A DNA stretch of 64,000 bases from Dehalococcoides sp. JdFR-54 (GTDB taxonomy: Bacteria; Chloroflexota; Dehalococcoidia; JdFR-54), in assembly GCA_002011475.1 (NCBI GenBank), contig MTNP01000005.1:15336-79335 (forward strand). Direction: 5' to 3'. How positions within the stretch are numbered: position 1 is the first letter of the stretch; each line of letters opens with the position of its first letter. Both the position numbers and the translations under genes were made by a program. The notes beneath the pieces were generated by a model that was not told the origin of the DNA, searched no databases, and saw only the letters and a list, made by a program, of their open reading frames with translations. This document shows positions 35,334 through 63,870 of this stretch, in pieces.

Positions 35334-35385
35334 GGCTGGTGCTCAGCGCGAGCAAGGCGTGGCACACATAGGAAGGAGGCAAATC

Positions 35386-36306
35386 ATGAGGAAGGTGTTC
35401 ATAACGGCGGCCATCACAGGGGCTATCCATACCCCTACTATGAGCCCCTACCTCCCCATCACCCCCGACGAGATCGTGGAAAATGCGGTAGGGGCCTGCG
35501 AGGCTGGGGCAGCTATAGCCCATATTCACGTGCGAGATCCGGAGACCGGACGGCCTGTCTCCAGGGTTGACCTCTTCCGAGACATAGCGAGCAAAATCAA
35601 GAAACGGTGCAATATGGTCCTCTGCGTCACCACCGGGGGAGGTCTGGGCCAGACCGACGAGGAGCGGCTCAGGGTGGTGCCCGAGCTACAGCCCGAACTA
35701 TGTTCCTTTAACCAGGGCTCGATGAACTTCGGCATTTTCCCCCTGCTGGAGAAGATCCCAGAGTTCAAATTCCCCTGGGAAAAATCATACATCGAAATGA
35801 CCTACGATTTTATTTTCCCGAATACCTTTAAGAGCCTCTCCAACTTCGCTCGAGCCATGTCCCAATACGGGACAAAGCCGGAGTTGGAAGTTTACGACGT
35901 GGGCATGATCAATAATGCCCGTTGGCTGATACAGCAGGGATTGCTGAAGCAACCGGTTTACATCCAGTTTGTGATGGGCATAATGGGGGGCATCCCAGCC
36001 ACGGTGGAAAACCTGGTCTTCCTCTACAAGACCGCCCGCGAGGCCATCGGCGATTTCATTTGGTCGGTAGCCGCGGCGGGGAGGAGCCAAATGCCTATGG
36101 CAGCCACCTCCCTGGCACTGGGAGGCAATGTCCGGGTTGGCCTGGAAGATGCCTTGTATGTGGGCAAGGGACAACTGGCCAAAAACAATGCCGAGCAAGT
36201 GGAGAAAGCGGTTCAAATGATAAATGCCCTTGGCCTAGAGGTGGCTACCCCTGACGACGTCAGGGAAATCTTGGGATTGAAGGGTCTGGATAAAGTGAAC
36301 TTTTAA
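35386..36306 (+). CDS. beta-keto acid cleavage enzyme (BKACE / 3-keto-5-aminohexanoate cleavage enzyme family, DUF849)
   Basis: MRKVFITAAITGAIHTP with Zn ligands of the HIH...E type. RBS GGAAGGAGG. 306 aa. Confidence 0.8.
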   Translation: MRKVFITAAITGAIHTPTMSPYLPITPDEIVENAVGACEAGAAIAHIHVRDPETGRPVSRVDLFRDIASKIKKRCNMVLCVTTGGGLGQTDEERLRVVPELQPELCSFNQGSMNFGIFPLLEKIPEFKFPWEKSYIEMTYDFIFPNTFKSLSNFARAMSQYGTKPELEVYDVGMINNARWLIQQGLLKQPVYIQFVMGIMGGIPATVENLVFLYKTAREAIGDFIWSVAAAGRSQMPMAATSLALGGNVRVGLEDALYVGKGQLAKNNAEQVEKAVQMINALGLEVATPDDVREILGLKGLDKVNF

Positions 36307-36337
36307 ATCCATGCAGTCGGGTATGGTCCCGGTGCCT

Positions 36338-41002: not shown

Positions 41003-42034
41003 TCAAGGATATAGTAGCACTTTGCCCGTTTCCCCGCCTGCCGCCAGCTCCAGGGCACTGCTGAAGTCAGCCAAGGGGAAGCGATGGGTTATCACGGGCA
41101 TGGGGTCGAACCTTCCCGACTCTAGCAGGTATTGCATCTGCCACCATGTCTGCCACATTATCCGGCCCGTGCAGCCCAGCACCGTGGCCTCTTTATAGAT
41201 GATGTCCTCGGGGGTATCCAGCTCCACCGGCGCTGAGGGCATCCCGATCAGGCTGACCCTGCCCCCCCGCCGCAGTACCTGGAAGGCCATTTTGGTGGCC
41301 TCGGTGCTGCCACTGACCTCCAGGGAGACATCCACCCCCCGACCCTCGGTAGCCTCGAGGATGGCCCTGACCACATCTTCCCTTGCGGGGTTAAGCAACC
41401 TGGCCTGGGGGGCCAACCGGTGAGCCATGGCCAGTCGGGTGGGATTGGGCTCCAAGGCGAAGACCTTGGTTGCCCCCAGGGCAGCCACGACACCGACACA
41501 AAACAGGCCGATGGGCCCGCAACCGAAAACGGCCACGCTTTTGCCGTTGATCTCCCCCGAGAGGGCGCCGTGTACCGCCACCCCCAAGGGCTCCAAGATG
41601 GCGCCCAAGTCGGCAGGGGTGTCCTTGCTGAGTCGCCAACAGCAGACGGCGGGGATTCTAGCATATTCCGCAAAGGCGCCATCGGTGTGAACGCCGATAA
41701 TGGCCATTCTCTCGCAGATATGCTGGGCCCCCGTCTGGCACTGGTAGCATTGGCCACAGGGTATGTGCGTTTCCACAGCCACCAGGTCGCCCAGCTTCGG
41801 GGTGGTCACCTGGTCGCCCACCGCCACCACCTCCCCACACGCCTCGTGGCCGAAGATCAGCGGCGGCTTGAGCCTGGCCTGGGCAAAGGGAGTCCAGTGG
41901 TAGATGTGAATATCGGTGCCGCATATAGCCGCAGCCTTCACCCGGATCAGGACATCTGTGGCCCCGATGGTGGGTATATCCACATCCAGGAGTTCGGCTC
42001 CGGGAGCCCTGCCTGTCTTCACCAAGGCTTTCAT
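41003..42034 (-). CDS. Zn-dependent medium-chain alcohol/polyol dehydrogenase (threonine-3-/sorbitol-dehydrogenase family)
   Basis: GHEACGEV catalytic Zn motif, structural Zn CGQCYQCQTG, and Rossmann VFGCGPIGL. Confidence 0.8.
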   Translation of the reverse strand: MKALVKTGRAPGAELLDVDIPTIGATDVLIRVKAAAICGTDIHIYHWTPFAQARLKPPLIFGHEACGEVVAVGDQVTTPKLGDLVAVETHIPCGQCYQCQTGAQHICERMAIIGVHTDGAFAEYARIPAVCCWRLSKDTPADLGAILEPLGVAVHGALSGEINGKSVAVFGCGPIGLFCVGVVAALGATKVFALEPNPTRLAMAHRLAPQARLLNPAREDVVRAILEATEGRGVDVSLEVSGSTEATKMAFQVLRRGGRVSLIGMPSAPVELDTPEDIIYKEATVLGCTGRIMWQTWWQMQYLLESGRFDPMPVITHRFPLADFSSALELAAGGETGKVLLYP

Positions 42035-42799: not shown

Positions 42800-44629
42800 A
42801 TGGTTCTCAAGGTGGAGACAGACTATTTGATGGGCAATGAGGCTATGGGGCGGGGCGCGGTGGAAGCTGGGGTGAGGGTGGTGGCCGGCTATCCGGGAAC
42901 ACCCGCCTCGGAGATTTTGACCTACCTCTCCCAGTACCCGGATGTCTATGTGGAGTGGTCGGCCAATGAGAAGGTGGCCCTGGAGATGGCCCTGGGCGCC
43001 TCCCTGTGCCGAGTGAGGGCCATGGCGGTCATGAAGCATAACGGCCTCAATGTGGTCACGGACTTCCTGATGCACCTCAACTTCACCGGGGTGCGGGGGG
43101 GTCTGGTGCTGGTGGCCGCCGATGACCCCGGCGGCCTATCCTCCCAGAACGAGGAGGATAGCCGCATCATAATCCAGCGCCATGCCCATCTACCCCTATT
43201 CGACCCCTGGCACCCCAGGGAGGCCAAGGAGATGGTCAAGGCCGCCTTTGAGCTATCGGAGCAGACGGAGCTCTGCTTTGTGCTGCGTCCGGTGATGCGC
43301 GTCTGCCATGCCCGCAGCGCCATCGGCCTGGAGGCGCTGCCCCAGACGGAAAGGCAGCCCGCGTTCGAGGACGACCGCTCCCGGTTTGTGATGAGCGGGG
43401 TGAGGGAGCCCAAATTTGGTGGCATGCTCCGCCCTGTTCTGAGGCACAGGTGGCTGAATGACAAGCAGCCGGAGATCGCCCGGATTATGGAAGAGAGCCC
43501 CTTCAATCACATCGAGGAGGGGGAGGGGAAGAGCGGCCTGGTGGCCTGCGGCATCGCTTATGCCTATGTAAAGGAGGCGGAGAGGCTCCTGGGCCATAAG
43601 CTGCCGGTGCTCAAGCTGGGCACCCTGCCACCGCCGCGCAGCAAGGTCCTGGAATTCGCCCGCCTCATGGACAAGCTGGTGGTCTACGAGGAGGTGGAGC
43701 CAGTGGTGGAGCGCTGGCTCAAGGAGCTGCTCTACGAGGCGGGCCTTAGGGTGGAGGTGGTGGGACGAAGCGGCTTTCTGCCCTCAGAGGGGGAATTATC
43801 CACGGAGGTGGTGCTGGATTCCATCGGGCGCTTGTATCCAAAGCTGAGGGTGCCCAAGCCGGAGGCCCCTCCCCTCCAGGTGCCGGTACGGACACGTACC
43901 CAGTGCGTGGGCTGTGGCTATCGGGGGCTGCTGCACGCCCTGAAGCTAACCGTCCGAAAGAGCCATGGGGTGGTCACCGGGGATATAGGCTGTTACGATG
44001 CCGGCGCCTTCGCGCCTTTGGAACTACAATCGACCATCTATTGCATGGGTTCGTCCATCCCTATGGCCCAGGGCATGGCCCATAGCGGCTTGGGGCGTCC
44101 CGTTTTCGCCATAATCGGCGATTCCACCTTCTTCCACAATGGCCTGCTCGGCCTGCTCAATGCCATCCATAGCGGGGTCAATCTGGTGGCCATCGTCTGT
44201 GACAACCGCACCACAGCCATGACCGGCTTTCAGCCCCACCCCGGGAGCGATACCGATATCAGGGGAGAGCCCGCCCAGGCCATCGACATCGCCAAGATGG
44301 CTGAGGCCATGGGAGCCAAGGTGCAGGTGGTCAACCCCTATGATATACCCCAAGTGCTCCAGGCTCTGGATAGGGCAGTGAAGGGGGGGGTGTCGGTGGT
44401 GGTGTCCCGGGCCCCCTGTTACTTGCTGGCCAGCAGGGCCGGAGAGACGCTCTTCACCCCCCGAAGGGTGAGGGTGGACCCCGAGCTGTGTAACAACTGC
44501 AAGATATGTGTCGACTACTTCGGCTGTCCCGCCATACACTTCAAGGATGACAAGGTCTATATAGACGAGGTCACCTGCGTTCAGTGCGGCATGTGCCTCG
44601 AGGTGTGCAAAAGGGGGGCTATAAAATGA
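42800..44629 (+). CDS. iorA: indolepyruvate:ferredoxin oxidoreductase alpha subunit
   Basis: LMGNEAMGRGAVEAGV, a TPP-binding GDIGCY...GDSTFFH motif, and two C-terminal 4Fe-4S CxxCxxCxxxC motifs. Confidence 0.85.
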   Translation: MVLKVETDYLMGNEAMGRGAVEAGVRVVAGYPGTPASEILTYLSQYPDVYVEWSANEKVALEMALGASLCRVRAMAVMKHNGLNVVTDFLMHLNFTGVRGGLVLVAADDPGGLSSQNEEDSRIIIQRHAHLPLFDPWHPREAKEMVKAAFELSEQTELCFVLRPVMRVCHARSAIGLEALPQTERQPAFEDDRSRFVMSGVREPKFGGMLRPVLRHRWLNDKQPEIARIMEESPFNHIEEGEGKSGLVACGIAYAYVKEAERLLGHKLPVLKLGTLPPPRSKVLEFARLMDKLVVYEEVEPVVERWLKELLYEAGLRVEVVGRSGFLPSEGELSTEVVLDSIGRLYPKLRVPKPEAPPLQVPVRTRTQCVGCGYRGLLHALKLTVRKSHGVVTGDIGCYDAGAFAPLELQSTIYCMGSSIPMAQGMAHSGLGRPVFAIIGDSTFFHNGLLGLLNAIHSGVNLVAIVCDNRTTAMTGFQPHPGSDTDIRGEPAQAIDIAKMAEAMGAKVQVVNPYDIPQVLQALDRAVKGGVSVVVSRAPCYLLASRAGETLFTPRRVRVDPELCNNCKICVDYFGCPAIHFKDDKVYIDEVTCVQCGMCLEVCKRGAIK

Positions 44630-45231
44630 AGCTGGACGTCTTCATCGCTGGCGTGGGCGGGCAGGGAAATCTATTTGCCTCCCGGGTTCTGGCCGTGTAC
44701 TCCCTGGGCAAGGGGTACACGGTGCTGGCCACGGAGACCATCGGCGCCGCCCAGCGCGGGGGCTCGGTGGTGTCTCATCTCAGGATAAGCGATGCAGAAA
44801 TATACTCGCCGCTCATACCCGTGGGCCAGGTAGATATTCTGATGGGCTTCGAGACCATCGAGATGCTGCGCAATATCAACCTGCTCAGCCCCCAGGGGGA
44901 GTATTTGCTCAATAAGTATCAGATCCCCACAGTGAGATGCAATATGGGGCTGGACACCTATCCCTCCGATGAGGCCATAATGGAGGCCCTCCAGGCCACA
45001 GGCAAACGCGGCTACGTCATCGAGGCCACTGAGGCAGCCTGGAGGGTGGGGGACAGCGTGCTCACCAACGTGGTGATGCTGGGGGCACTGTGTGAGATCA
45101 GCCCATTCTTCGACAGCGACGAGGTCAAAAGGGTACTGGCCGCCGAAGCCCCCAGAAAGGCGGTGGACTCCAATCTGAGGGCCTTCGAGGCGGGGAAGGC
45201 GCTGATGGCCGAGGTGGTGGGGAAAAGATAG
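44626..45231 (+). CDS. iorB: indolepyruvate:ferredoxin oxidoreductase beta subunit
   Basis: MKLDVFIAGVGGQGNLFASRVL. The start overlaps the iorA stop as ATGA. Confidence 0.85.
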   Translation: MKLDVFIAGVGGQGNLFASRVLAVYSLGKGYTVLATETIGAAQRGGSVVSHLRISDAEIYSPLIPVGQVDILMGFETIEMLRNINLLSPQGEYLLNKYQIPTVRCNMGLDTYPSDEAIMEALQATGKRGYVIEATEAAWRVGDSVLTNVVMLGALCEISPFFDSDEVKRVLAAEAPRKAVDSNLRAFEAGKALMAEVVGKR

Positions 45232-45290: not shown

Positions 45291-47957
45291 TCAAAAATGG
45301 GCCAGTAACGCCTCAATCAGGGGCGTGGCCTGCTCCTCGCTGAGGCAGTACTTCATCTCGGTAAACCTGCTTCGGAACCGGGAAATGGTCTCGGGGCAAT
45401 CCCTACCGGCCAGCACTATATCCGCCATGTAGCCGGCCAGCTCTTGGAAGTCCGGCTCTGTCATGCCGAATCTGGTCATCTCCTGGACACCCATCCTCAC
45501 CCCGCTGCTGGCGGTGAAGGTCTCATCGCCCGGTATGGCTTGGTAGTTCACAACTATGTTGTTTGCCTCCAGCCGGTGGGCCACCTCGATTCCCTTGGCA
45601 TAGTCAAATCTCAGGATCACCTGGTGGGTCTCCGTGAAGTCGATCCCGGGGTCTCCCTCTACCCGAAATCCGCACTCCTTCAGTGCCAGGGCGAAGGCCT
45701 TGGCATTGGCGATCACTTGCCTCTGGTACTCGTCTTTGAAGGCATTCATCTCGTAGGTTGCCATCAGAAGCCCCAGCAGGGTGCCCAGGTGATGATTGCT
45801 CACGCTCCCCGGGAATATTCTCCTCACTATGGCCTCCCACAGTTCAAAGGCGTCTGTGCCTTTGCTCATGTTGCTGGCGATTATCCCCCTCTGCGTGCCG
45901 AAGAAGGTTTTATGCGTTGACGCCGTTATAATATCGGCACCTTCCTCAAGGGGCTGCTGGAAATAGGGGCCGAGGAGACCAAAGACATGGGCGGTATCAT
46001 ACATGAGCGTGGGCCTGGGTCTCATACCGGCAATCATGAGGGCTATCTCCGACACGGGCTCCCGATGCAACACCGCGCTCTTGCCCAAGATGATCAGCTC
46101 AGGCTTGTGCTCCGCTATGAGTTGGGCTGTCCTGTCCAGGTCTATCTGCCACGGGTTGTCCAGCGACCAGGGGAAGTTGACGACCGCCGGCCTTCCGGTC
46201 AGGGGACTGATGGCGACATAGTCCCTCAGCGCGCCCATGGGCTGTGAGCTGAGGTGGCCTCCCATCCCAATGAAATGGTTCATAACGCTCCGGAATCTCC
46301 GCGGCTCAGCCGTCCTGTCCACCCTGTTCAGGTATTCCAATAGGCCGCTGAACACCGCGGTGTTGGCCATCTGGCCGCTGATGGGTCGGGTTTCTACCTG
46401 AGAGCAGCCGAGGAAATCCCTCATCTGTTCGGCCAACTCCTCCTCCACCTCGGCTATGAACCTTGTCCCCTGATAATAGTACGTCTCCACCTCCCCCAGG
46501 GCCTTGACTATCCGGTGCTCCGCATACCTCCCTGCTGGATCGGAGATGCTGAGCAATCTCACCAGGGGCGAGGGGGTCTGCTCAGAGGGTATCAAGTTGA
46601 TGGTGGCCCTTTGCCGCCACCGGGCATTGTCCAGGGTTTTCCTCACCAGGCTGTGAGCCAGCCCTTCCAACGTCTTTCTTGCCCCAGATGCGACCGCCTT
46701 ATCCTGATCTTCAACCAGGATTGGCCTAGCGTAGGGGGCTGCCTCGCTGCCCAGGTGCCGGCTGACCACCATGGCCGGGAGTTGCCTATCCCTTACGGAG
46801 ATCAGTAGCTCCTGCCCCTCCTTCAGGTCGGCATCGAGGTAGGCAAGGCATATCGCCCTTTTGCCTGATTGGGCGCCTGGCTTCGAAGCGACGCCCTTGC
46901 CCTCCACCCTCCAGAATGGGACCACGGTGCCGCTGGTCACGCGGCCCACCAATGCCCCGTTTAGGTAAACCTCACACCCTGCTCTGGCTACCCCATCACC
47001 CAAGACCGCTACAGGCATTATCATCCTGGGGACCAGCTGGTCCGCCTTGGGCTTGTCGAGCAGACCTTGCAGCCTTAACTTCACTTCCTCGAACTGGTTG
47101 GCCAGGGCCTCCCGGCCTATATAGTAACCCTTGTTCCTGGCGAAGCTGATGCAGTTTCCGGCTAGCCGCCCGGAGAACAGGGGTATCTCTTTCCCCTCCC
47201 CATCGTTTCCCAGCTCATGCCCATAGAGGGGGAGGTTGGCCTCAAGCCTCAAGGTGTCCCTGGCCCCCAGCCCGACAGCTACCACCCCCTCCCTGGCCCC
47301 AATTTCCAGCAAGGTGTTCCAGAGGGGGACAGCTATCTCCGCAGGGGGGAACAGCTCGAAGCCGATAGGTTCGCCGGTATAGCCTGTTCTAGCTATCGGC
47401 ACCTTTGTGCCGAATATCTCGACGGTGGTGATGGTGTTCCTGGTGGGACCGGGCAATCTCAGCCCATCACCCCCCAACACGGTCTCCAGCACCGCCTTCG
47501 ACCTGGGCCCCTGGAGCGCCAGCATGGCGATGGCAGCGGTACGGTCTTCGAGCACCACGGCGCGGAACCTTTCCTTGCGCTCTTGCAGCCACTGCCAGTC
47601 CTTTTCCGTGTTCGCAGCGTTGACCACCAGCATATACTGCTGATGGTTTATCCTGTAGAGATAGGCATCGTCAACTGCTCCCCCACTCTCGTTTGAGATG
47701 ATCGTGTACTGGGCTTGCCCTGGCTCCAATGCCTCAACGTTATTCGTTAAGACATATTGCAGGAAGGGCAGGGCATCTTCGCCACTTATTAGCAGTCTGC
47801 CCATATGAGAGAGGTCGAACAAGCCGCCGAATTTCCTGGTTGCCAGATGCTCTTGGAATATGCCCGAAGCATAGTTCAGAGGCATTTCCCAGCCGCAGAA
47901 TTCAATCATATTGGCCGCTAGTTTTATATGCTCTTGATATAAAGGTGTGCGCTTCAT
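45291..47957 (-). CDS. fusion protein: glycine-cleavage T protein (aminomethyltransferase) N-terminal ~430 aa joined to a full-length serine hydroxymethyltransferase C-terminal ~450 aa
   Basis: The N-terminal part reads MKRTPLYQEHIKLAANMIEFCGWEMPLNYASGIFQEHLATRKFGGLFDLSHMGRL (GcvT). The C-terminal part has NLIPSEQTPSP, PISGQMANTAVFSGLL, HKPELIILGKSA, MYDTAHVFGLL, ITASTHKTFFGTQRGII (PLP-Lys) and FPGSVSNHHLG, all SHMT signatures. It is one uninterrupted 895-codon frame. Confidence 0.8.
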   Translation of the reverse strand: MKRTPLYQEHIKLAANMIEFCGWEMPLNYASGIFQEHLATRKFGGLFDLSHMGRLLISGEDALPFLQYVLTNNVEALEPGQAQYTIISNESGGAVDDAYLYRINHQQYMLVVNAANTEKDWQWLQERKERFRAVVLEDRTAAIAMLALQGPRSKAVLETVLGGDGLRLPGPTRNTITTVEIFGTKVPIARTGYTGEPIGFELFPPAEIAVPLWNTLLEIGAREGVVAVGLGARDTLRLEANLPLYGHELGNDGEGKEIPLFSGRLAGNCISFARNKGYYIGREALANQFEEVKLRLQGLLDKPKADQLVPRMIMPVAVLGDGVARAGCEVYLNGALVGRVTSGTVVPFWRVEGKGVASKPGAQSGKRAICLAYLDADLKEGQELLISVRDRQLPAMVVSRHLGSEAAPYARPILVEDQDKAVASGARKTLEGLAHSLVRKTLDNARWRQRATINLIPSEQTPSPLVRLLSISDPAGRYAEHRIVKALGEVETYYYQGTRFIAEVEEELAEQMRDFLGCSQVETRPISGQMANTAVFSGLLEYLNRVDRTAEPRRFRSVMNHFIGMGGHLSSQPMGALRDYVAISPLTGRPAVVNFPWSLDNPWQIDLDRTAQLIAEHKPELIILGKSAVLHREPVSEIALMIAGMRPRPTLMYDTAHVFGLLGPYFQQPLEEGADIITASTHKTFFGTQRGIIASNMSKGTDAFELWEAIVRRIFPGSVSNHHLGTLLGLLMATYEMNAFKDEYQRQVIANAKAFALALKECGFRVEGDPGIDFTETHQVILRFDYAKGIEVAHRLEANNIVVNYQAIPGDETFTASSGVRMGVQEMTRFGMTEPDFQELAGYMADIVLAGRDCPETISRFRSRFTEMKYCLSEEQATPLIEALLAHF

Positions 47958-47962
47958 CGTTA

Positions 47963-49435
47963 TCAAGTCCTTCTGCATCGATCATTCCCTTTCGGGGTCC
48001 AGCGCAGGTTCAGCTTTCTGGCAGCCGCCACCTCATCGAGACGCCTCATCGGGGTATTATGGGGCGCCGAGTGCAAGAGCTCGGGGTTCTCTTCTGCCTC
48101 TTTGGCTATCATCTTCATGGCAGCTATAAATTCATCGAGCGTCTCCTTGCTCTCCGTTTCGGTGGGCTCTATCATCAGGGCCTGGCTGACCACCAGCGGA
48201 AAGTACATGGTGGGCGGATGAAAACCGTAGTCGAGCAATCGCTTGGCAATATCCAGGGCGGTTACCCCTTTGTCCTTCTGCCGGCTCGCCGAGATCACGA
48301 ATTCATGCAGGCAGGTTCGATCGTGGGGCAGGTGATAGTCATCCTTTAGCTTCTTTTGCAGATAATTGGCGTTGATCACCGCGTTGTCGCTGACCTCTCT
48401 CAGCCCCCCGGCCCCCAGGGTGCGTATGTAGGCATAGGCCTTCACCAATACGCCGAAGTTACCGTAAAAGGCGCTCACTTTGCCTATAGACTTGGCGGGC
48501 CGGGCGAATTCGTAGGCCGCTTGCCTTCCTTCTCTATAAATCACTACAGGGGTTGGCAGGAAGTCCTTCAGGAATTCCTTGACACAAACCGGGCCTGCTC
48601 CAGGCCCTCCCCCTCCATGGGGGGTGCTGAAGGTCTTATGCAGGTTCATTTGCACGAGATCAAATCCCAACTCCCCCAACTTGGTCCGGCCGATAACGGC
48701 ATTCAGATTGGCGCCGTCGCAGTAGAGGAGGGCACCGCAGTCGTGGACCAGTCTGCTTATCTCGAGCGTGTTACGGTCGAAGAGGCCCAGGGTGTTAGGT
48801 ATAGTGAGCATCAAGGCCGCCACCCTATCAGAGAGCTTTGGGCGTAGGTCATCCAGGTCCACATCGCCCTCCTGGGTGGACCTGACGGTCATCTGCTCAA
48901 AGCCGCACATGGTCACGGTGGCCGCGTTGGTACCGTGGGCTGTATCAGGGACCAGCATTATGTTCCTTTGGCCCTGCCCTCGGTGGCGGTGATAGGCCCT
49001 GACCATCATGGCTCCGGTCAGTTCCCCCTGAGCCCCAGCCATGGGAGCCAGACTGGTCGCATCCAGGCCCACAATCTCCGCCAGATATCCTTGAAGCTCG
49101 AACATGAGGCGAAGCGCCCCCTGAACCGTGTCCACCGGCTGGAGGGGGTGCAATTGGCTGAACCCGGGAAGCTGGGCGATAGCCTCGTGCCACTTGGGGT
49201 TATATTTCATGGTGCAACTTCCCAAGGGATAGAACCCGGTATCCACGCTGAAATTTAGGCGGCTCAGGGCGGTGAAGTACCTCACCAGCTCTATCTCGCT
49301 TACCTCGGGGAGGACGAGTTCCTCCCTGAGGAGGGAGGCATCCGGCAGCTCAGAGGGCGGCACGTCCAAGACGGGCAGGGTGCACCCCCTTGCCCCAGCC
49401 TTGCTTCTATCCAATAGCAGATCCCTCTTGCTCAT
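47963..49435 (-). CDS. gcvPB: glycine dehydrogenase (decarboxylating) subunit 2
   Basis: PLGSCTMKYNPK and the PLP motif NLHKTFSTPHGGGGPGAGP. Confidence 0.9.
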   Translation of the reverse strand: MSKRDLLLDRSKAGARGCTLPVLDVPPSELPDASLLREELVLPEVSEIELVRYFTALSRLNFSVDTGFYPLGSCTMKYNPKWHEAIAQLPGFSQLHPLQPVDTVQGALRLMFELQGYLAEIVGLDATSLAPMAGAQGELTGAMMVRAYHRHRGQGQRNIMLVPDTAHGTNAATVTMCGFEQMTVRSTQEGDVDLDDLRPKLSDRVAALMLTIPNTLGLFDRNTLEISRLVHDCGALLYCDGANLNAVIGRTKLGELGFDLVQMNLHKTFSTPHGGGGPGAGPVCVKEFLKDFLPTPVVIYREGRQAAYEFARPAKSIGKVSAFYGNFGVLVKAYAYIRTLGAGGLREVSDNAVINANYLQKKLKDDYHLPHDRTCLHEFVISASRQKDKGVTALDIAKRLLDYGFHPPTMYFPLVVSQALMIEPTETESKETLDEFIAAMKMIAKEAEENPELLHSAPHNTPMRRLDEVAAARKLNLRWTPKGNDRCRRT

Positions 49436-50754
49436 GCTGGCACCTCACTCCCGATGGCCTCAAGCTCGCCAACGAGTCTATCTATGTCGCCCCTGGTGTG
49501 CAGTTCGGTGACACAGAGGAGCATGCCGTTCTCAACCGTGGGGCTTAAATCGAGTCCGCCTATGATTCCCCTCTCCAGCAGTCGTCTGTTTATGTACGAG
49601 GGGGCAACGGGGCAGCGGATGGCAAATTCCTTGAAGAAGGGCCTGTCAAAGACCAGGCTATAGCCCTTCAGTCTGGAGATCCGGGCTGCCGCGTAGTGGG
49701 CCTTGTGATAGCAAAGCTGAGATAGCTCCTTAAGCCCCTGTTTGCCCAGGGCTGCCAAGTATATGGTGGCAGCCAGGGCCAGCCAAGCGGAATTGGTGCA
49801 GATATTTGAGGTGGCCCGCTCCCGGCGAATGTGCTGTTCGCGGGTTTGCAGTGTCAGGACATATCCCGTCTCTCCGTCCATATCCACAGTCTGTCCCACT
49901 ATCCTGCCGGGCATATGCCTCAAATATTCCTCACGGCAGGCGAAAATGCCCAGAGAAGGGCCACCAAAGCTGGGCGGGATCCCCAAAGGCTGTCCCTCAG
50001 CAACCACGATATCGGCACCCGCCTCGCCCGGGGGCTTCAACAAGCCCAATGAGATGGGGTCCACCACGACCACCAACAGGGCCCCGGCCGCATGAGCCAG
50101 CTGGGCATAGTCCTCCAATCTCTCCAGACAGCCGAAGAAATCAGGGTTCTGCACCAGGAGACAGGCATGGTCCGGGCCTAGGGAAAGGGCCTTGGCTTCC
50201 ACAATAGCGGGTGTTATGCCCAGGCCCTGGCTATAAGTCCTCACCACCTCTTGGTAGGCGGGATTTACACCACTCAGGATGGCGACCACCTTTCTGCCGG
50301 TGATGCGGCACGCCATAAGCGCCGCTTCGGCCAGCGCTGTGGCGCCGTCGTACATCCCGGCGTTGCTCACCCCCATCCCGGTAAGCTGACAGACCAGGGA
50401 CTGATATTCATATATGGCCTGCAGGGTGCCCTGGCTCACCTCCGCCTGGTAGGGGGTGTATGGGGTCAGGAACTCGCTCCGGCCGATGAGGTTAGTGACC
50501 ACACCCGGTATGAAATGCCGATATGAACCGGCACCTAAGAAGCAGCTATACCGCCCTTGATGGGCGTTGCTTGCGGCGAGCTCATTCAGCTCTCGCACCA
50601 GCTCCGCCTCAGAGAGGGCGGGGGGGAGCCGGAAATTGGCCTGGCGCTGGCTCGGGGGTATATCGATAAATAGCTCTTCAACCGAGGTTACCCCTATCTC
50701 CCCGAGCATAGCCTGCCGGTCTTGGTCGTTGTTAGCTATGTAAGGCGAAGTCAT
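49432..50754 (-). CDS. gcvPA: glycine dehydrogenase (decarboxylating) subunit 1
   Basis: 440 aa. FLGAGSYRHFIPGVV, TPYQAEVSQGTLQAIYEYQ. Confidence 0.9.
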   Translation of the reverse strand: MTSPYIANNDQDRQAMLGEIGVTSVEELFIDIPPSQRQANFRLPPALSEAELVRELNELAASNAHQGRYSCFLGAGSYRHFIPGVVTNLIGRSEFLTPYTPYQAEVSQGTLQAIYEYQSLVCQLTGMGVSNAGMYDGATALAEAALMACRITGRKVVAILSGVNPAYQEVVRTYSQGLGITPAIVEAKALSLGPDHACLLVQNPDFFGCLERLEDYAQLAHAAGALLVVVVDPISLGLLKPPGEAGADIVVAEGQPLGIPPSFGGPSLGIFACREEYLRHMPGRIVGQTVDMDGETGYVLTLQTREQHIRRERATSNICTNSAWLALAATIYLAALGKQGLKELSQLCYHKAHYAAARISRLKGYSLVFDRPFFKEFAIRCPVAPSYINRRLLERGIIGGLDLSPTVENGMLLCVTELHTRGDIDRLVGELEAIGSEVPA

Positions 50755-50764
50755 GCCATCTCCC

Positions 50765-51151
50765 TCAGCCTTCTTGCCGGCTGATAAACTCCTGATACTC
50801 CTGGAAGCTCATCAGGTTATTGAGCTCGGAAACATCATCGGCCGTCAACTTCACCAGCCAGCTCTCCCCAAAGGGGTCTTTCCTGACAAGGTCCGGTTCT
50901 TCCTTGAGGGCCTCGTTTACCGCCACAACCTCGCCGGAGAGGGGTGAGAAGATAACGGCGACAGCCTTCACCGATTCAAGCTCACCCAGTTTCTCAAACT
51001 GCTTTACTTTGCTACCCACGCTGACAAGCTCCAAGAAGACTATGTCCCCCAAACGGGCCGCAGCGAAGTCAGTGATTCCTACGGTGGCTATCCCATCCTT
51101 CTCAAATACCCATTCGTGACTCTCGGCGTATCTCAGCTCCCTTGGGTCCAA
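50765..51151 (-). CDS. gcvH: glycine cleavage system H protein
   Basis: ATVGITDFAAARLGDIVFLEL and the lipoyl-Lys motif ELESVKA. Confidence 0.9.
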   Translation of the reverse strand: MDPRELRYAESHEWVFEKDGIATVGITDFAAARLGDIVFLELVSVGSKVKQFEKLGELESVKAVAVIFSPLSGEVVAVNEALKEEPDLVRKDPFGESWLVKLTADDVSELNNLMSFQEYQEFISRQEG

Positions 51152-51197
51152 ATCATCACCTCCGCATTCGATTTTTTGCTCCGTTTCCTGCGACCAT

Positions 51198-52076
51198 CTA
51201 GGTCTTCACCCGCGTTGACTTCCAGAGGCCCTCAGCGCTGAAGGAGCTGCGCACCAGAGGGCCTGAGGCTACTCCTCGAAAGCCCATTCTTTGGCCGAGG
51301 TCTTGGTAATGGCTGAACTCCTCAGGTGTCAGATACCTTACTACAGGGTGATGCCCCAGCGATGGCCTGAGGTACTGTCCCAGGGTTACGAAGTCGCAGC
51401 CCACCTGCCTCAGGTCTTCCAGGACCGCCACCACCTCCTCCTCCCTCTCGCCCAGTCCCAGCATCAGCCCGGATTTGGTGAGCAGTCCCTGGGCCGACGA
51501 CTTGGCCCTTCCCAGCAGCTCCAAGGAGCGGCGATAGTTCGCTTGAGGACGAATCTCGGGATACAACCGCGGCACCGTCTCCAGATTGTGATTGAGGACC
51601 GTGGGGTGGGCTTGAACGACCTTGTTCAAAGAAGATGGCGAACCCTTGAAGTCCGGTATGAGGACCTCTACCCCCTCGATAGCACCCAATTCCTTAAGAG
51701 CCCTTATGGTCTCGGCGAACTGGGCCGAACCGCCATCGGGCAAATCATCCCGGGTGACAGAGGTGACCACTACATAGGAAAGGCCTAGCTCCCTGGCCGC
51801 TGCCGCAATTCGCTCCGGCTCCGTGGGGTCTGGCGGAGCGGGTTTCCCCCGGGCAACGCCGCAAAAGGCGCAGTTTCTGGTGCAAATGTTCCCCAGTATC
51901 ATGAAGGTAAGTTTTCCCTGCGAGAAGCACTCATGGCGATTGGGACAGGAAGCGCTATGACAGACTGTGTGCAGCCTCCATCGGCCAAGCGCCCTCTGAA
52001 CCCTGTGCACGCCTTCACCGTGTGGCGCTGGTCTTCTCAGCCAGGTGGGAAGTCTCGTCTCAGCCGTCAGAGACAT
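51198..52076 (-). CDS. lipA: lipoyl synthase
   Basis: Radical-SAM CTRNCAFC plus N-terminal auxiliary-cluster cysteines. Confidence 0.9.
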   Translation of the reverse strand: MSLTAETRLPTWLRRPAPHGEGVHRVQRALGRWRLHTVCHSASCPNRHECFSQGKLTFMILGNICTRNCAFCGVARGKPAPPDPTEPERIAAAARELGLSYVVVTSVTRDDLPDGGSAQFAETIRALKELGAIEGVEVLIPDFKGSPSSLNKVVQAHPTVLNHNLETVPRLYPEIRPQANYRRSLELLGRAKSSAQGLLTKSGLMLGLGEREEEVVAVLEDLRQVGCDFVTLGQYLRPSLGHHPVVRYLTPEEFSHYQDLGQRMGFRGVASGPLVRSSFSAEGLWKSTRVKT

Positions 52077-52764
52077 GGCTCGCCTTTCTCAGCTTGAAGG
52101 GAAAAACGCTCTGGAATGCCTGGAGGACCCTCTCTTTCACCATGGACATCTCCAGACTGGCCCCGCATAATTCGGCCATCGAGGTCACGGCTACCTGGGG
52201 TATGCCACAGGAATCTATGTAATCGAAATAACGGAGGTCGGTGTTCACGTTGAGCGCCAGACCGTGCTTGCTGATGCCACAGCTGATGTGCAGACCTATA
52301 AAGCCGATCTTGGCGGCCCCGACCCAGATGCCGGGATATCCTGGTTTGCGCTGGCCTTGGATATTGAAGGCCTCGAGAACCTGTAAGGCCACCTCCTCCA
52401 GGCTGTGGACATATTGGGACACGCTCAGCCCCAACTGCTTCAGGCCAAGGATAGGATACACTAGCAACTGCCCCGGTCCGTGATAGATGACACCGCCACC
52501 CCGGTCGCTTTGGCAAATAGCTAGACCCTGGGCCAGGAGGCTGGCCCTGGATACCTTGAAGTCGTTGGCCCGTTTGAAGCGCCCTATTGTAAATGTGGAG
52601 GGATGTTCCGCCAATAGGAGGGTATTTGGCAGAGCGCCCGCGGCCCGCATACGCACCATCTTCTCCTGTATCTCGGCGGCATGGCTATAAGGGACCAGCC
52701 CTAGGTCCAAAGTGATACAACTGAGCTCCAGAGCCTCGCTTGTCTGATCAAGGTTCAGTATCAT
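52060..52764 (-). CDS. lipB: octanoyl-[ACP]:protein N-octanoyltransferase
   Basis: Motifs EHPSTFTIGR, GGGVIYHGPGQLLVY and catalytic C/K. It overlaps the lipA start by 17 nt. Confidence 0.85.
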   Translation of the reverse strand: MILNLDQTSEALELSCITLDLGLVPYSHAAEIQEKMVRMRAAGALPNTLLLAEHPSTFTIGRFKRANDFKVSRASLLAQGLAICQSDRGGGVIYHGPGQLLVYPILGLKQLGLSVSQYVHSLEEVALQVLEAFNIQGQRKPGYPGIWVGAAKIGFIGLHISCGISKHGLALNVNTDLRYFDYIDSCGIPQVAVTSMAELCGASLEMSMVKERVLQAFQSVFPFKLRKASHVSDG

Positions 52765-52807
52765 GGCTCATTCATTACTTGCTGAAACTGCCTTTTCAGC
52801 AGTGTGG

Positions 52808-53008
52808 AATAATAAAGGGCACGCAGCCATGCGTGCCCCCTGTCCCTTTGCCTGAGAGATTCGCCCTACAACGGGCCTTCCCCTTCGGCCCCCCACATTA
52901 CGGGGTGTCTCCAGGCGGTCATCACAACTGCAGTCCTTTTGCCTGAGAGTTTCGGCCCAAACCGCGCCTTGCCCCTTCGGCTCCCCAATCATGGGGCCTC
53001 TCCTGCAG
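52808..53008 (-). ncRNA. glycine riboswitch (tandem aptamers) with intrinsic-terminator expression platform, leader of lipB-lipA-gcvH-PA-PB-(gcvT::glyA)
   Basis: Aptamer 1 (minus strand): CUGCAGGAGAGGCCCC..GGGGAGCCGAAGGGGCAAGG...ACUCUCAGGCAAAAGGACUGCAG. Aptamer 2: CCUGGAGACACCCC..GGGGGGCCGAAGGGGAAGG...AUCUCUCAGGCAAAGGGACAGG. Both carry the conserved GGAGA, CCGAAGGGG and CUCAGGCAAA(A)GGAC cores. Then comes GGGCACGCA-UGGC-UGCGUGCCC followed by UUUAUUAUU. Confidence 0.85.
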
Positions 53009-53100
53009 TTGCATTTGCAACATAGCATATGGGACAGGGTTTGTCAACCGCCCCGATTGACCGCCGGGGGTGATGGAGCCATCAGTGCCGCTGGGGGCCC

Positions 53101-54366
53101 CTATTTAATGACCTCGACCCCGCCCATATAGGGCCTTAACACCTCGGGGATGGCCACACTGCCATCGCGTTGCTGGTAGTTCTCCAGGATGGCTATGACC
53201 ACTCGGGGCAGGGCCAGCCCCGAGCCATTCAGGTTGTGCACATATTGGGGCTTGGCGCCAGGCTCAGGGCGATAGCGGGTGTTGGCCCGGCGGGCCTGGA
53301 AATCGGTGCAGTTGGAGCAGGAGCTGACCTCCAGCCACTCCCCGCAGCCGGGGGCCCAGGCCTCCAGGTCGTAGGTCTTGCTGGAGGCGAAGCCCAAGGC
53401 CCCGGTGCACAACTGCATCACCCGGTAAGGCAGGCCCAGCCTCTGCAATACATCCTCGGCATCCCGCACCATGCTCTCCAGCTCCTGGTCCGAGCTCTGG
53501 GGCTCGGTGAGCTTGTAGAGCTCCACCTTGTCGAACTGGTGACCCCGCTTCAGCCCCCGGGTCTCCTTGCCCGCCGACATCTTCTCCCGGCGGAAGCAGG
53601 GGGTGTAGGCCACATAGCGGAGGGGCAGGGTGCCCGGCTCCAGGATCTCGTCGCGGTGGAGGTTGGTCAGGGGCACCTCGGCGGTGGGCACGAACCAGTA
53701 GTCCTCCTCGGCATCGTGATACAGGTTGTCGGCGAACTTGGGCAAATTCCCCGAGCCCACCATGCACTCCTGGCTGACCATGAAGGGGGGGTACACCTCA
53801 GTATAGCCATGCTCCCGGGTGTGGAGGTCGAGCATGAACTGGATAAGGGCGCGCTGGAGGGCCGAGCCCAGGCCGAAGAGGACATAGAATCGGGTGCCGG
53901 AGAGCTTAGCCCCCCGGGCGAAGTCGATGATGCCCAGGCGTTCCCCCAGCACCCAGTGGGGCCGGGGGTCGAAGTCGAACCCCTTGGGCTCGCCCCAGCT
54001 CCGCACCAGGATGTTATCGTTGTCGTCCTGGCCCTCGGGGATGCCGGGGTAGGGGAGGTTGGGCATCTCCAGGAGGAGCTGCTGGAGCTGGCCCTCGATG
54101 GCATTTATTCTGCTGTCCAGCTCCTTTATCTCGTCGCCGACCCGTCTCATCTCGGCGATAAGCTCGGGGGGCTTCTCCTTCATCCTGCCCATCTCTTTGC
54201 TCACCCGGTTGCGCCGGGCCCGGAGCTCATCCACCTTGGCGATAAGGCGGCGGCGCTCCTCATCCAGGGCGAGGACCTGGTCGAGGGGGGTCTCCTGGTG
54301 GCGCTTGGCCAGGGCCTGGCGGACGAACTCGGGGTTTTCCCTGATCAGTTTGAGGTCAAGCATATC
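53101..54366 (-). CDS. serS: seryl-tRNA synthetase
   Basis: [14 protein letters not shown], coiled-coil arm, and class-II motifs FRRE...[12 protein letters not shown]. Confidence 0.9.
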
Positions 54367-54393
54367 TAGCCTCGCTGGCTGGTGTCTTTTCAC

Positions 54394-63858: not shown

Positions 63859-63870
63859 CCATGAGGGTTT

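What the first reader, a model, noticed from the sequence alone, without database searches (positions are those of the whole stretch)
45291..53008. Single-ORF fusion of glycine-cleavage T protein with serine hydroxymethyltransferase, at the end of a riboswitch-controlled lipB-lipA-gcvH-gcvPA-gcvPB operon
One 895-codon reading frame joins a complete aminomethyltransferase (GcvT, with MKRTPLY...FDLSHMG and the C-terminal barrel) to a complete SHMT (PLP-Lys THKT, SGQMAN, DxAH, FPG..HH). Both halves act on THF/5,10-CH2-THF and on glycine. A covalent fusion would couple serine <-> glycine + CH2-THF with glycine <-> CO2 + NH3 + CH2-THF, a serine-to-2xC1 module or, in reverse, a reductive-glycine-type route. 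The fusion is unusual; I cannot check databases to confirm that it is undescribed. The operon also carries its own lipoylation genes (lipB, lipA) and a glycine riboswitch. It sits in a window rich in folate/C1 genes: fhs, folD, acsBCDE, serC and serA. The fusion gene has visibly lower GC and different codon usage than the acs genes, which may indicate acquisition.
Basis: partly seen in the sequence, partly recalled or inferred. Interest (0 to 1): 0.75.

Follow-up and report, generated by a model that had tools for sequence, protein, structure and literature searches.

The report
Natural GcvT–SHMT fusion enzyme, glycine-induced
A Dehalococcoidia genome encodes one protein joining the T-protein of the glycine cleavage system to a divergent serine hydroxymethyltransferase; this real, conserved, glycine-switched fusion occurs in well over a hundred species across many phyla, yet databases label it only "GcvT" and I found no study of it.

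Summary
Window 45291..47957 (minus strand) is one intact gene. The likely product is 888 aa; the longest ORF is 895 aa. It has a complete T-protein half, a roughly 30-aa poorly conserved linker, and a complete SHMT half with every PLP and catalytic motif invariant.

It is not an assembly artefact. At least 120 protein clusters and 189 species genomes carry the same in-frame fusion. They include cultured Acetobacterium malicum and span more than 10 phyla. The two halves co-evolve (r=0.95).

The SHMT half is a distinct clade nearest archaeal-type SHMT. It fails the NCBIfam GlyA cutoff, and NCBI names the protein only "GcvT". Eight literature searches found no description.

The gene ends an operon: promoter, tandem glycine riboswitch, lipB, lipA, gcvH, gcvPA, gcvPB, fusion. 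The terminator overlaps the aptamer-2 P1 helix, which is ON-switch logic.

Elsewhere the fusion sits beside GCS genes and serine consumers: serine dehydratase, or aminotransferases with a hydroxypyruvate-reductase-like dehydrogenase.

Best reading: a glycine-induced module doing 2 Gly → Ser + CO2 + NH3, with folate cycling between the fused domains.

I rate this a new variant of known enzymes, of moderate interest.

The parts
53019..53047 (-). Sigma-70-like promoter (TTGACA, 17 nt, TG-extended TATGTT) directly upstream of the riboswitch
   Evidence: 10 of 12 consensus matches plus a TG motif. The position was read. This is a consensus match only, not shown to be functional.
52921..53015 (-). 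Glycine riboswitch aptamer 1
   Evidence: RF00504, 68.3 bits (gathering score 32), full-length model match.
52830..52924 (-). Glycine riboswitch aptamer 2. Its P1 3' strand, CAGGGGGC, lies at 52842..52835.
   Evidence: RF00504, 59.2 bits (gathering score 32); the tandem alignment.
52808..52841 (-). Intrinsic terminator of the expression platform: AGGGGGCACGCA-UGGC-UGCGUGCCCUUU followed by a U-rich tail. Its 5' arm overlaps aptamer-2 P1, which is ON-switch logic.
   Evidence: hairpin about -21.7 kcal/mol in the minimum-free-energy fold; the same overlap design appears in at least 12 related loci.
52060..52764 (-). lipB (octanoyltransferase), first gene of the operon
   Evidence: PF21948 LplA-B_cat, 136.6 bits.
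51198..52076 (-). lipA (lipoyl synthase)
   Evidence: Radical_SAM 70 bits plus a weak LIAS_N match. The long ORF contains the N-terminal CHSASCPNRHEC cysteine motif.
50765..51151 (-). gcvH (H-protein)
   Evidence: PF01597, 143 bits.
49432..50754 (-). gcvPA (P-protein subunit 1)
   Evidence: PF02347, 412.9 bits.
47963..49435 (-). gcvPB (P-protein subunit 2)
   Evidence: GcvP2_C 104 bits and GDC-P 42 bits.
45291..47957 (-). gcvT::shmt fusion gene (888 aa plus stop; the longest ORF starts at 47978)
46728..47957 (-). T-protein (aminomethyltransferase) half, aa 1-410, including the C-terminal barrel with family-specific insertions
   Evidence: NCBIfam GcvT models above cutoff; 1YX2, 227 bits. TM 0.90 to T-protein structures. 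D96/D97, N113 and R233 invariant.
46638..46727 (-). Inter-domain linker, aa about 411-440
   Evidence: lowest conservation in the protein (0.37); pLDDT below 50 at residues 419-426.
45294..46637 (-). SHMT half, aa 441-888, archaeal-like clade, with PLP-Lys K683
   Evidence: E480, Y495, S527, G528, H568, D654, H657, H682, K683 and R821 invariant; best SHMT-fold match is 4BHD/4UQV.

Best explanation
The gene encodes a bifunctional enzyme.

The N-terminal half is the T-protein of the glycine cleavage system (GCS). It takes the aminomethyl group from lipoyl-H-protein and transfers it to tetrahydrofolate (THF), giving NH3 and 5,10-CH2-THF. The C-terminal half is a PLP-dependent serine hydroxymethyltransferase (SHMT) that condenses CH2-THF with a second glycine to give serine and free THF.

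Because the two are fused, the folate made at one site is the substrate of the other. THF then cycles locally. Together with P-, H- and an L-protein, the operon performs 2 Gly + NAD+ + H2O -> Ser + CO2 + NH4+ + NADH. This is the same chemistry as the mitochondrial GDC/SHMT step of photorespiration.

Expression is switched on by glycine through a tandem riboswitch. Glycine stabilises the aptamer-2 P1 helix, which prevents formation of the overlapping terminator. The operon also makes its own lipoylation enzymes (lipB, lipA) for the H-protein.

Serine is then passed to lineage-specific sinks. In Bacillota it goes to pyruvate via serine dehydratase. In Actinomycetota, Dehalococcoidia and others it likely goes to hydroxypyruvate and glycerate via an aminotransferase and a 2-hydroxyacid dehydrogenase. 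In this Wood-Ljungdahl organism, surplus CH2-THF can also enter the methyl branch.

Shown: gene integrity, domain identities, conserved catalytic residues, co-inheritance of the halves, operon and riboswitch anatomy, and neighbourhood statistics.

Inferred: both enzyme activities, the ON polarity of the switch, the net direction, and any folate channelling.
For: - Integrity and domains.
- Catalytic residues of both halves are invariant in 40 diverse homologues, mapped onto solved T-protein and SHMT structures.
- The predicted folds match a T-protein (TM 0.90) and an SHMT (TM about 0.7).
- The fusion is conserved in frame in at least 120 clusters and 80 fetched loci, out of 189 species genomes.
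- Pairwise distances of the two halves correlate at r=0.947 over 207 fusions.
- A split form exists, with a fusion-type gcvT stop embedded in the Shine-Dalgarno sequence of a separate shmt.
- In 30 of 82 loci gcvH is adjacent, and only 2 loci hold another gcvT-like gene. The fusion therefore appears to supply the T-protein.
- A glycine riboswitch lies upstream of the fusion or its operon in 19 of 82 loci.
- The terminator 5' arm overlaps aptamer-2 P1 here and in at least 12 other loci.
- Serine-consuming neighbours share the glycine-controlled operons: sdaB/sdaA, class I/II aminotransferase in 18 loci, glyoxylate/hydroxypyruvate-reductase-like dehydrogenase in 9, and class V AGXT-like aminotransferase in 7.
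- Logic: only in the 2 Gly <-> Ser mode is the product of one fused domain the substrate of the other.
Against: - No activity has been measured for any member of the family.
- The SHMT half scores below the NCBIfam GlyA cutoff.
- The residue aligned with E. coli N347 is Gln. I recall N347 as a folate contact, from memory only.
- The AF2 model is of a monomer and says nothing reliable about the geometry between the two folate sites.
- The ON polarity is inferred from sequence overlap, not tested.
- About 60% of well-flanked loci have no GCS gene next to the fusion.
- 12 tested loci from other lineages have no riboswitch.
- All reactions are reversible. In a Wood-Ljungdahl organism with fhs and folD nearby, flux could run the other way.
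- T. phaeum degrades both glycine and serine to CH2-THF with unfused enzymes from a similar cluster (PMC12674515).
- No L-protein gene is in the window.
Confidence: 0.58

Rival explanations
1. Catabolic funnel into C1. Both domains run towards CH2-THF: Ser -> Gly + CH2-THF by SHMT, then Gly -> CO2 + NH3 + CH2-THF by the GCS. Two C1 units per serine feed the Wood-Ljungdahl methyl branch. The fusion then only ensures co-expression and co-localisation.
For: The window carries acsB/D/E-like genes, folD and fhs. T. phaeum uses exactly this GCS plus Wood-Ljungdahl route for glycine and serine, from a cluster holding sda, glyA and gcv genes (PMC12674515). Glycine induction is compatible with this, since glycine is the intermediate.
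Against: In this mode the two fused domains share no product-substrate relation. Serine-consuming enzymes (sdaAB, or aminotransferase plus 2-hydroxyacid dehydrogenase) sit in the same glycine-induced operons. This is more natural if serine is a product. Many carriers, such as Gammaproteobacteria and Thermoleophilia, are not obvious Wood-Ljungdahl organisms; I did not test this.
Confidence: 0.2
2. Anabolic reductive-glycine module. The GCS runs in reverse (CH2-THF + CO2 + NH3 + NADH -> Gly), and SHMT adds a second CH2-THF to make serine for biosynthesis or CO2/formate assimilation.
For: The neighbourhood is rich in folate and C1 genes. The stand-alone relative P0125 lies next to an NAD-dependent formate dehydrogenase, a PALP enzyme and gcvP fragments. 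The reactions are reversible.
Against: The riboswitch design is glycine-ON, here and in related loci. This is the opposite of what end-product control of a glycine-synthesising operon would need. In this direction glycine is released by the P-protein, not the T-protein, so fusing T to SHMT gives no intermediate hand-over.
Confidence: 0.14
3. The C-terminal half is not a true SHMT. It would be an SHMT-fold enzyme with another activity (a THF-independent threonine or beta-hydroxy-amino-acid aldolase or transaldolase), or a non-catalytic scaffold.
For: It falls below the NCBIfam GlyA cutoff, with hits to fluorothreonine transaldolase and to L-threonine transaldolase 7K34. A threonine dehydrogenase gene lies 3 kb away. 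The position aligned with E. coli N347 is Gln.
Against: The best matches by sequence and by fold are bona fide SHMTs (M. jannaschii 182 bits). The PLP lysine and the Glu, Tyr, His and Arg residues of the SHMT mechanism are all invariant. The half is more conserved than the GcvT half. Its consistent partner is a folate enzyme.
Confidence: 0.06
4. Assembly or annotation artefact: two adjacent genes merged by a missed stop codon or frameshift.
For: None beyond the general possibility in a metagenome-assembled genome. One true split form exists elsewhere.
Against: The same reading frame is continuous in at least 120 independent protein clusters and 80 loci from different studies, including isolate and complete genomes. 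An independent Logan assembly of SRR3723048 gives the identical gene.
Confidence: 0.01

Closest known systems
Canonical glycine cleavage T-protein (GcvT; B. subtilis 1YX2, T. maritima 1WOO, E. coli 3A8I)
   Same: The N-terminal 410 aa pass the NCBIfam GcvT models. They share 33-34% identity and TM 0.90 with solved T-proteins. They keep the VDD aspartate and the ARDTLRLEA arginine. The gene sits in an operon with gcvH and gcvPA/PB.
   Different: The half is about 50 aa longer because of insertions in the C-terminal barrel region. It ends in a family-specific PYARP motif and continues into a second enzyme.
Archaeal-type serine hydroxymethyltransferase (M. jannaschii SHMT, 4BHD/4UQV)
   Same: It is the best match by sequence and by fold. 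It shares the FPGxVSNHH signature and all PLP and catalytic motifs.
   Different: Identity is only 38%, which is more distant than the 40% between M. jannaschii SHMT and E. coli GlyA. The fused domain carries a highly conserved insertion of about 25 aa (LLEYLNRVDRTAEPRRFRS...). It is fused, and it occurs in bacteria that presumably use THF rather than H4MPT.
Plant and animal mitochondrial glycine decarboxylase complex plus SHMT (the photorespiratory 2 Gly -> Ser step); comparison from general knowledge
   Same: The same proposed net reaction, with folate cycling between the T-protein and SHMT. Related loci even add aminotransferase and hydroxypyruvate-reductase-like genes, which resembles the downstream photorespiratory steps.
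   Different: There the enzymes are separate polypeptides. Here they are covalently joined and under riboswitch control.
GcvT-domain fusion enzymes: dimethylglycine oxidase/dehydrogenase, sarcosine oxidase alpha, TMAO demethylase (1PJ5, 4PAB, 2GAG, 9Q59)
   Same: A T-protein-like folate domain is fused to a partner enzyme so that a C1 unit is handed over within one protein. They appear as structural and sequence hits.
   Different: In those enzymes the GcvT-like domain is C-terminal and accepts C1 from an upstream oxidase or demethylase. Here a bona fide T-protein is N-terminal, and its partner consumes the CH2-THF.
Thermacetogenium phaeum sdaAA/AB-glyA1-glyA2-lplA-lpd-gcvPB-PA-H-T cluster (PMC12674515)
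   Same: A Wood-Ljungdahl anaerobe clusters SHMT, GCS, lipoylation and serine dehydratase genes for glycine and serine catabolism.
   Different: The genes are separate with no fusion, and flux was interpreted as running towards CH2-THF and the Wood-Ljungdahl pathway.
Tandem glycine riboswitch of gcvT operons (B. subtilis type; S. griseus, cited in PMC12674515)
   Same: Two RF00504 aptamers are followed by a terminator that competes with aptamer-2 P1. The switch controls GCS genes.
   Different: Here the first regulated genes are lipB and lipA, and the regulated T-protein carries an SHMT.

Membership tests
GcvT (glycine cleavage aminomethyltransferase) | Sequence match above the curated family thresholds | tested here: met
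   NF001567 313.8 bits (cutoff 300) and TIGR00528 267.4 bits (cutoff 235.85). PF01571 268.5 bits and PF08669 34.1 bits.
GcvT (glycine cleavage aminomethyltransferase) | Three-domain T-protein fold | tested here: met
   pLDDT about 90 for this half. TM 0.90-0.91 to 1YX2 and 1WOO over about 400 aligned columns.
GcvT (glycine cleavage aminomethyltransferase) | Catalytic Asp (E. coli D97) and conserved folate-site residues | tested here: met
   the VDD motif aligns, and D96, D97, N113, Y193, E201 and R233 are invariant in 40 homologues. The roles of these residues are from memory.
GcvT (glycine cleavage aminomethyltransferase) | Genomic association with gcvH and gcvP | tested here: met
   for the window operon; gcvH adjacent in 30 of 82 loci and gcvP in 26 of 82.
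GcvT (glycine cleavage aminomethyltransferase) | H-protein-dependent aminomethyl transfer activity | not testable with these tools
   This needs reconstitution with the P-, H- and L-proteins.
SHMT / GlyA family | Pfam SHMT domain above its gathering score, matched full length | tested here: met
   PF00464 124.7 bits (gathering score 27), profile positions 10-399 of 399.
SHMT / GlyA family | NCBIfam serine hydroxymethyltransferase model (NF000586) above cutoff | tested here: not met
   250 bits against a cutoff of 335. The domain is a divergent clade, so it should not be filed as an ordinary GlyA.
SHMT / GlyA family | PLP-binding lysine and catalytic motifs (RYAE, YYxG, SGxxAN, GGH, DxAH, THKT, SGxR) | tested here: met
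   for the alignments to 4BHD and 1DFO. E480, Y495, S527, G528, H568, D654, H657, H682, K683 and R821 are invariant.
SHMT / GlyA family | Folate-contact residues as in E. coli or B. stearothermophilus SHMT | tested here: inconclusive
   the equivalents of E57, Y64/65 and H126-L127 are kept, but the position aligned to N347 is Q806 (nearly invariant). The residue roles are recalled from memory.
SHMT / GlyA family | THF-dependent Ser <-> Gly activity | not testable with these tools
   This needs an enzyme assay or glyA complementation.
Glycine riboswitch (RF00504), tandem, ON type | Two aptamers, each above the Rfam gathering score | tested here: met
   68.3 bits; 59.2 bits. The gathering score is 32.
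Glycine riboswitch (RF00504), tandem, ON type | Expression platform in which ligand-stabilised P1 excludes a terminator | tested here: met
   the terminator 5' arm (AGGGGGCACGCA) contains the aptamer-2 P1 3' strand (CAGGGGGC). The same design occurs in at least 12 related loci. The functional polarity was not measured.
glycine-GGAnGA variant riboswitch (RF03166) | Score above the gathering threshold | tested here: not met
   70.4 bits against a gathering score of 110. It is an ordinary tandem glycine riboswitch, not this variant.

The most novel reading that the evidence does not exclude
The fusion is a dedicated 'serine-from-glycine synthase' in which a tightly held folate shuttles between the T-protein and SHMT active sites of an SHMT-dimer-based assembly. 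That would be true cofactor or substrate channelling. It would protect labile CH2-THF and make glycine detoxification or assimilation independent of the free folate pool. The conserved SHMT insertion and the T-barrel insertions would form the inter-domain tunnel or the H-protein docking surface. If so, it would be a natural, portable part for engineering the reductive glycine pathway and photorespiratory bypasses.
Probability: 0.27. Interest if true: 0.75.

Novelty: new variant of a known kind. Interest (0 to 1): 0.55.

Why it matters
The glycine cleavage system and SHMT are the two hubs linking glycine, serine and the folate C1 pool. They also form the core of photorespiration and of the natural and synthetic reductive glycine pathway.

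A natural covalent T-protein/SHMT fusion that is conserved across many phyla has three consequences:
1. It is strong Rosetta-stone evidence that the two steps are operated as one unit in many anaerobes.
2. It shows that automated annotation hides an SHMT activity in hundreds of genomes, because the protein is named only 'GcvT'. This can create false gaps or mis-assignments in glycine/serine pathway reconstructions, including for Dehalococcoidia, Desulfobacterota and Acetobacterium.
3. It offers a directly testable system for folate channelling, available from cultured strains, and a candidate part for C1-assimilation engineering.

The conserved operons also outline a bacterial, riboswitch-controlled route that resembles photorespiration: glycine to serine to hydroxypyruvate/glycerate, or to pyruvate.

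Tried and rejected
- Assembly artefact: rejected. The frame is continuous in at least 120 clusters and 80 loci, and in an independent assembly of the same sample.
- Recent horizontal acquisition inferred from low GC: rejected as unsupported. GC3 of the operon (0.68-0.74) is matched by fhs and other genes in the window. The closest homologues are also Chloroflexota.
- Ordinary bacterial GlyA: rejected.
- glycine-GGAnGA riboswitch variant: below threshold.
- Kbl (glycine C-acetyltransferase) as the identity of the conserved class I/II aminotransferase neighbour: rejected. It is Asp/Ala-aminotransferase-like and falls below every equivalog cutoff.
- Canonical Lpd as the identity of the Pyr_redox_2 neighbour in Desulfobacterota operons: not supported. 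It is closer to CoA-disulfide reductase / NADH oxidase.
- Family size from a junction-only query: uninformative. Only 170 short candidates were collected.
- afdb50 fold search: the library was unavailable.
- Context of stand-alone P0127: not on record.
- Eight literature searches with varied wording, plus reading of four papers, gave no description of the fusion.

Full report

Yes. The ORF listing gives one uninterrupted 895-codon ORF at 45291..47978 on the minus strand. The DNA across the domain junction (46.56-46.86 kb) reads straight through, as ...PYARPILVEDQDKAVASGARKTLEGLAHSLVRKTLDNARWRQRATINLIPSEQ....

Pfam finds GCV_T (13-259, 268 bits), GCV_T_C (373-408, 34 bits) and SHMT (447-851, 125 bits, essentially the full profile). 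NCBIfam places residues 7-408 in GcvT above the curated cutoffs (313.8/300 and 267.4/235.85). Residues 445-874 match the SHMT model NF000586 at 250 bits, below its cutoff of 335. No NCBIfam model spans both halves.

The real start is probably the second ATG at 47957 (MKRTPLY, 888 aa). It lies 5 nt after the gcvPB stop, is preceded by AGAAGGA, and is the start used by the database gene call and by all homologues.

**2. Is it an artefact?**

No. A search of 5.8 billion proteins returned at least 120 distinct 90%-identity clusters of 873-911 aa, all carrying both Pfam domains, at 59-77% identity. A scan of one genome per GTDB species found 189 genomes encoding a relative. All 80 fetched loci contain the two halves contiguous and in frame. 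An independent Logan assembly of SRR3723048 reproduces the identical gene and operon.

Carriers by record title:
- Dehalococcoidia/Chloroflexota
- many Desulfobacterota
- Thermoleophilia and other Actinomycetota
- Gammaproteobacteria (Xanthomonadales/Lysobacterales, Chromatiales)
- Acidobacteriota, Planctomycetales, Elusimicrobia, Fibrobacterota, Nitrospinota
- Bacillota, including the cultured Acetobacterium malicum DSM 4132 and the complete genome of Eubacteriaceae bacterium ES2
- two MAGs labelled Thermoplasmata

The window's organism is a Dehalococcoidia MAG. NCBI names these proteins only 'glycine cleavage system aminomethyltransferase GcvT'.

More divergent fusions of 913-961 aa, with SHMT halves 35-42% identical to the window's, also exist. 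Across 207 fusions the pairwise distances of the two halves correlate at r=0.947, so the halves have been inherited together. The SHMT half is the more conserved (mean distance 0.37 against 0.44), and the linker (aa about 415-440) is the least conserved.

One locus (L086) shows a true split form. A fusion-type gcvT ends ...PPYARPLLHPLKRR with AGGAGGTGA, which serves as the Shine-Dalgarno sequence for a separate SHMT gene of this clade starting 5 nt later.

**3. What are the two halves?**

*N-half.* The best solved relatives are bacterial T-proteins (B. subtilis 1YX2, 227 bits; T. maritima 1WOO). The AF2 model has pLDDT of about 90 for this half and superposes on T-proteins with TM 0.90-0.91. 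The VDD aspartate and R233 are invariant.

*C-half.* The best solved relative is the archaeal M. jannaschii SHMT (182 bits), against 104-114 bits for enterobacterial GlyA. Over aligned columns it is 38% identical to the M. jannaschii enzyme and 30% to E. coli GlyA, while those two share 40%. It is therefore a separate, divergent clade nearest the archaeal type.

Against 1.84 billion representatives only 208 proteins reach E<=1e-30. The top ones are fusions plus a few stand-alone proteins (P0125, P0127, P0144), followed by M. jannaschii-like proteins of 410-440 aa.

All SHMT hallmarks are present and invariant: RYAE (E480), YYQG (Y495), SGQMAN, GGH568, D654-x-A-H657, T-H682-K683-T, SGVR821 and the archaeal-type FPGSVSNHH. 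One position aligned to E. coli N347 is Gln; I recall N347 as a folate contact from memory. An insertion of about 25 aa relative to other SHMTs is highly conserved.

The low-confidence AF2 segments (452-497, 563-572, 716-722) are the N-terminal arm and active-site loops. In known SHMTs these lie at the dimer interface (from general knowledge), so low confidence is expected for a monomer prediction of an obligate dimer. No solved chain covers both halves.

**4. Operon and regulation**

All genes are on the minus strand and tightly packed: lipB, lipA, gcvH, gcvPA, gcvPB, fusion. Upstream lie a strong -35/-10 match (53047..53019) and two glycine aptamers: 53015..52921 at 68.3 bits and 52924..52830 at 59.2 bits. 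A hairpin follows, AGGGGGCACGCA-UGGC-UGCGUGCCCUUU plus a U-rich tail, of about -21.7 kcal/mol.

The 5' arm of the hairpin contains the P1 3' strand of aptamer 2 (CAGGGGGC). P1 and the terminator are therefore mutually exclusive, which is the classical glycine-ON design. The same overlap is seen in related loci of Dehalococcoidia, Desulfobacterota and Bacillota. The polarity is inferred, not measured.

An iterated nhmmer profile finds riboswitches upstream of the fusion or of gcvH-fusion operons in 19 of 82 loci. In L003, L010, L011 and L067 the riboswitch lies directly before the fusion gene. Rfam confirms that 12 loci from other lineages have none.

**5. Neighbourhood census (82 loci)**

| Neighbour | Loci |
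|---|---|
| gcvH | 30 |
| gcvP | 26 |
| Pyr_redox_2 disulfide reductase | 12 |
| lipA | 12 |
| lipB | 11 |
| class I/II aminotransferase | 18 |
| D-2-hydroxyacid dehydrogenase, closest to glyoxylate/hydroxypyruvate reductases | 9 |
| transketolase-like protein | 8 |
| class V AGXT/BhcA-like aminotransferase | 7 |
| Fe-S L-serine dehydratase (sdaB/sdaA) | 3 |

Only two loci hold another gcvT-like gene. Where GCS genes are adjacent, the fusion therefore appears to be the T-protein.

Lineage patterns:
- Bacillota: RS>gcvH>FUSION>gcvPA>gcvPB>sdaB>sdaA
- Actinomycetota: RS>(2HADH>)AT>FUSION>(TK-like>)
- Dehalococcoidia: (RS>)FUSION>AT5>(2HADH>)
- Desulfobacterota: lipA<lipB<(redox)<gcvPB<gcvPA<gcvH< divergent from FUSION>

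The stand-alone relative P0125 sits with an NAD-type formate dehydrogenase, an aminotransferase, a PALP enzyme and gcvP fragments.

**6. Mechanism**

Both halves use THF/CH2-THF and glycine. Only when the system runs 2 Gly <-> Ser does one fused domain produce the other's substrate: CH2-THF goes from T to SHMT, and THF goes back.

This combines with glycine-ON control and with serine consumers encoded in the same glycine-controlled operons. The best-supported model is therefore a glycine-induced conversion, 2 Gly -> Ser + CO2 + NH3 (+NADH), with local folate recycling. Serine is then deaminated to pyruvate, or transaminated and reduced towards glycerate. This is a bacterial counterpart of the mitochondrial GDC/SHMT couple.

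In this Wood-Ljungdahl organism (acsB/D/E-like, folD and fhs in the window), CH2-THF can also exchange with the methyl branch. The T. phaeum-type 'Gly/Ser -> CH2-THF -> Wood-Ljungdahl' flow (PMC12674515) is therefore the main rival. The anabolic reductive-glycine direction is a weaker rival, because it conflicts with ON regulation.

No L-protein gene is in the window.

**7. Novelty**

Eight full-text searches and four papers read gave no description of a GcvT-SHMT fusion. NCBIfam and Pfam have no model for it, and the PDB has no structure of it.

The sequences are, however, abundant in public databases under the name GcvT. It is therefore not categorically new. It is an uncharacterised, unnamed variant built from two very well-known enzymes.

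Its 'acquisition' suggestion does not. Its proposed flux directions are less well supported than 2 Gly -> Ser.

Noticed in passing
L043:4917-6329 (-) and 11 other loci (e.g. L020, L061, L079, L012, L006): In gcvH-gcvPA-gcvPB(-lipB-lipA) operons next to the fusion, the flavoprotein in the position of an L-protein is closer to CoA-disulfide reductase / NADH oxidase (287 bits) than to dihydrolipoyl dehydrogenase (116 bits). It may be an unconventional L-protein substitute.
   Followed up: partly
L029:6237-8597, L057:12705-15104, and L015, L036, L048, L051, L056, L070: A transketolase-like protein of 786-799 aa, far below every transketolase cutoff, recurs next to the fusion and the class I/II aminotransferase in Gammaproteobacteria, Actinomycetota and Fibrobacterota. 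Its role is unknown. It might decarboxylate or transfer from hydroxypyruvate.
   Followed up: partly
L003:3394-9870: A Dehalococcoidales contig carries three separate tandem glycine riboswitches within 6.5 kb. One is before the fusion, one before gcvH-lipA, and one before a further unidentified gene.
   Followed up: no
L085:1056-11816: The stand-alone SHMT of this clade (P0125) sits in a cluster of a NuoF-like plus molybdopterin formate dehydrogenase, SHMT, an epimerase-fold dehydrogenase, a class I/II aminotransferase, a PALP enzyme, NAD kinase and gcvP fragments. This looks like a reductive-glycine or serine-type C1 cluster. The contig has only 3x coverage.
   Followed up: partly
L086:2-1625: This is a split version of the fusion. 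A fusion-type gcvT ends in AGGAGGTGA, which acts as the ribosome-binding site for a separate shmt gene 5 nt downstream.
   Followed up: yes
window 51198-52076 (-): The automated gene call for lipA on the Logan contig is 234 aa (start equivalent to window 51902). That removes the N-terminal CHSASCPNRHEC cysteine motif, which the 292-aa ORF contains. The longer ORF is likely correct.
   Followed up: partly
window 52768-53028 (-): The 86-aa ORF listed here overlaps the tandem riboswitch and terminator, so it is almost certainly not a gene.
   Followed up: yes
window 41003-42034 (-): This is an L-threonine 3-dehydrogenase (391.8 bits against a cutoff of 380). It would be a glycine-generating route if paired with Kbl, but no kbl was found in the window.
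   Followed up: partly
window 42800-45231 (+): Indolepyruvate/2-oxoacid:ferredoxin oxidoreductase alpha- and beta-like genes converge on the 3' end of the fusion gene, leaving a gap of only 59 nt. No terminator was detected between them.
   Followed up: no
window 34362-37600: A 3-hydroxyacyl-CoA dehydrogenase, a BKACE (beta-keto acid cleavage enzyme) and a LarA-like (Lar_N) gene lie directly downstream of fhs. They have the lowest GC3 in the window (0.63-0.75).
   Followed up: no
L082:10001-12667 (GCA_038894075.1, labelled Thermoplasmata archaeon): A fusion 61% identical to the Dehalococcoidia protein stands alone among giant cadherin/PKD/Big-domain surface-protein genes in a MAG labelled archaeal. 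This is either cross-domain transfer or a binning error.
   Followed up: no
window 53101-54393 (-); L053, L057, L058, L063, L065, L066, L070: Seryl-tRNA synthetase lies immediately upstream of the riboswitch promoter in the window. In Actinomycetota loci a class Ib (Trp/Tyr) tRNA synthetase is divergently transcribed from the riboswitch. Both may be coincidental.
   Followed up: no
It is only 34% identical to the class V aminotransferase that follows the fusion in sister Dehalococcoidia. A SerA-like dehydrogenase starts at 63861 and runs off the window.
   Followed up: partly
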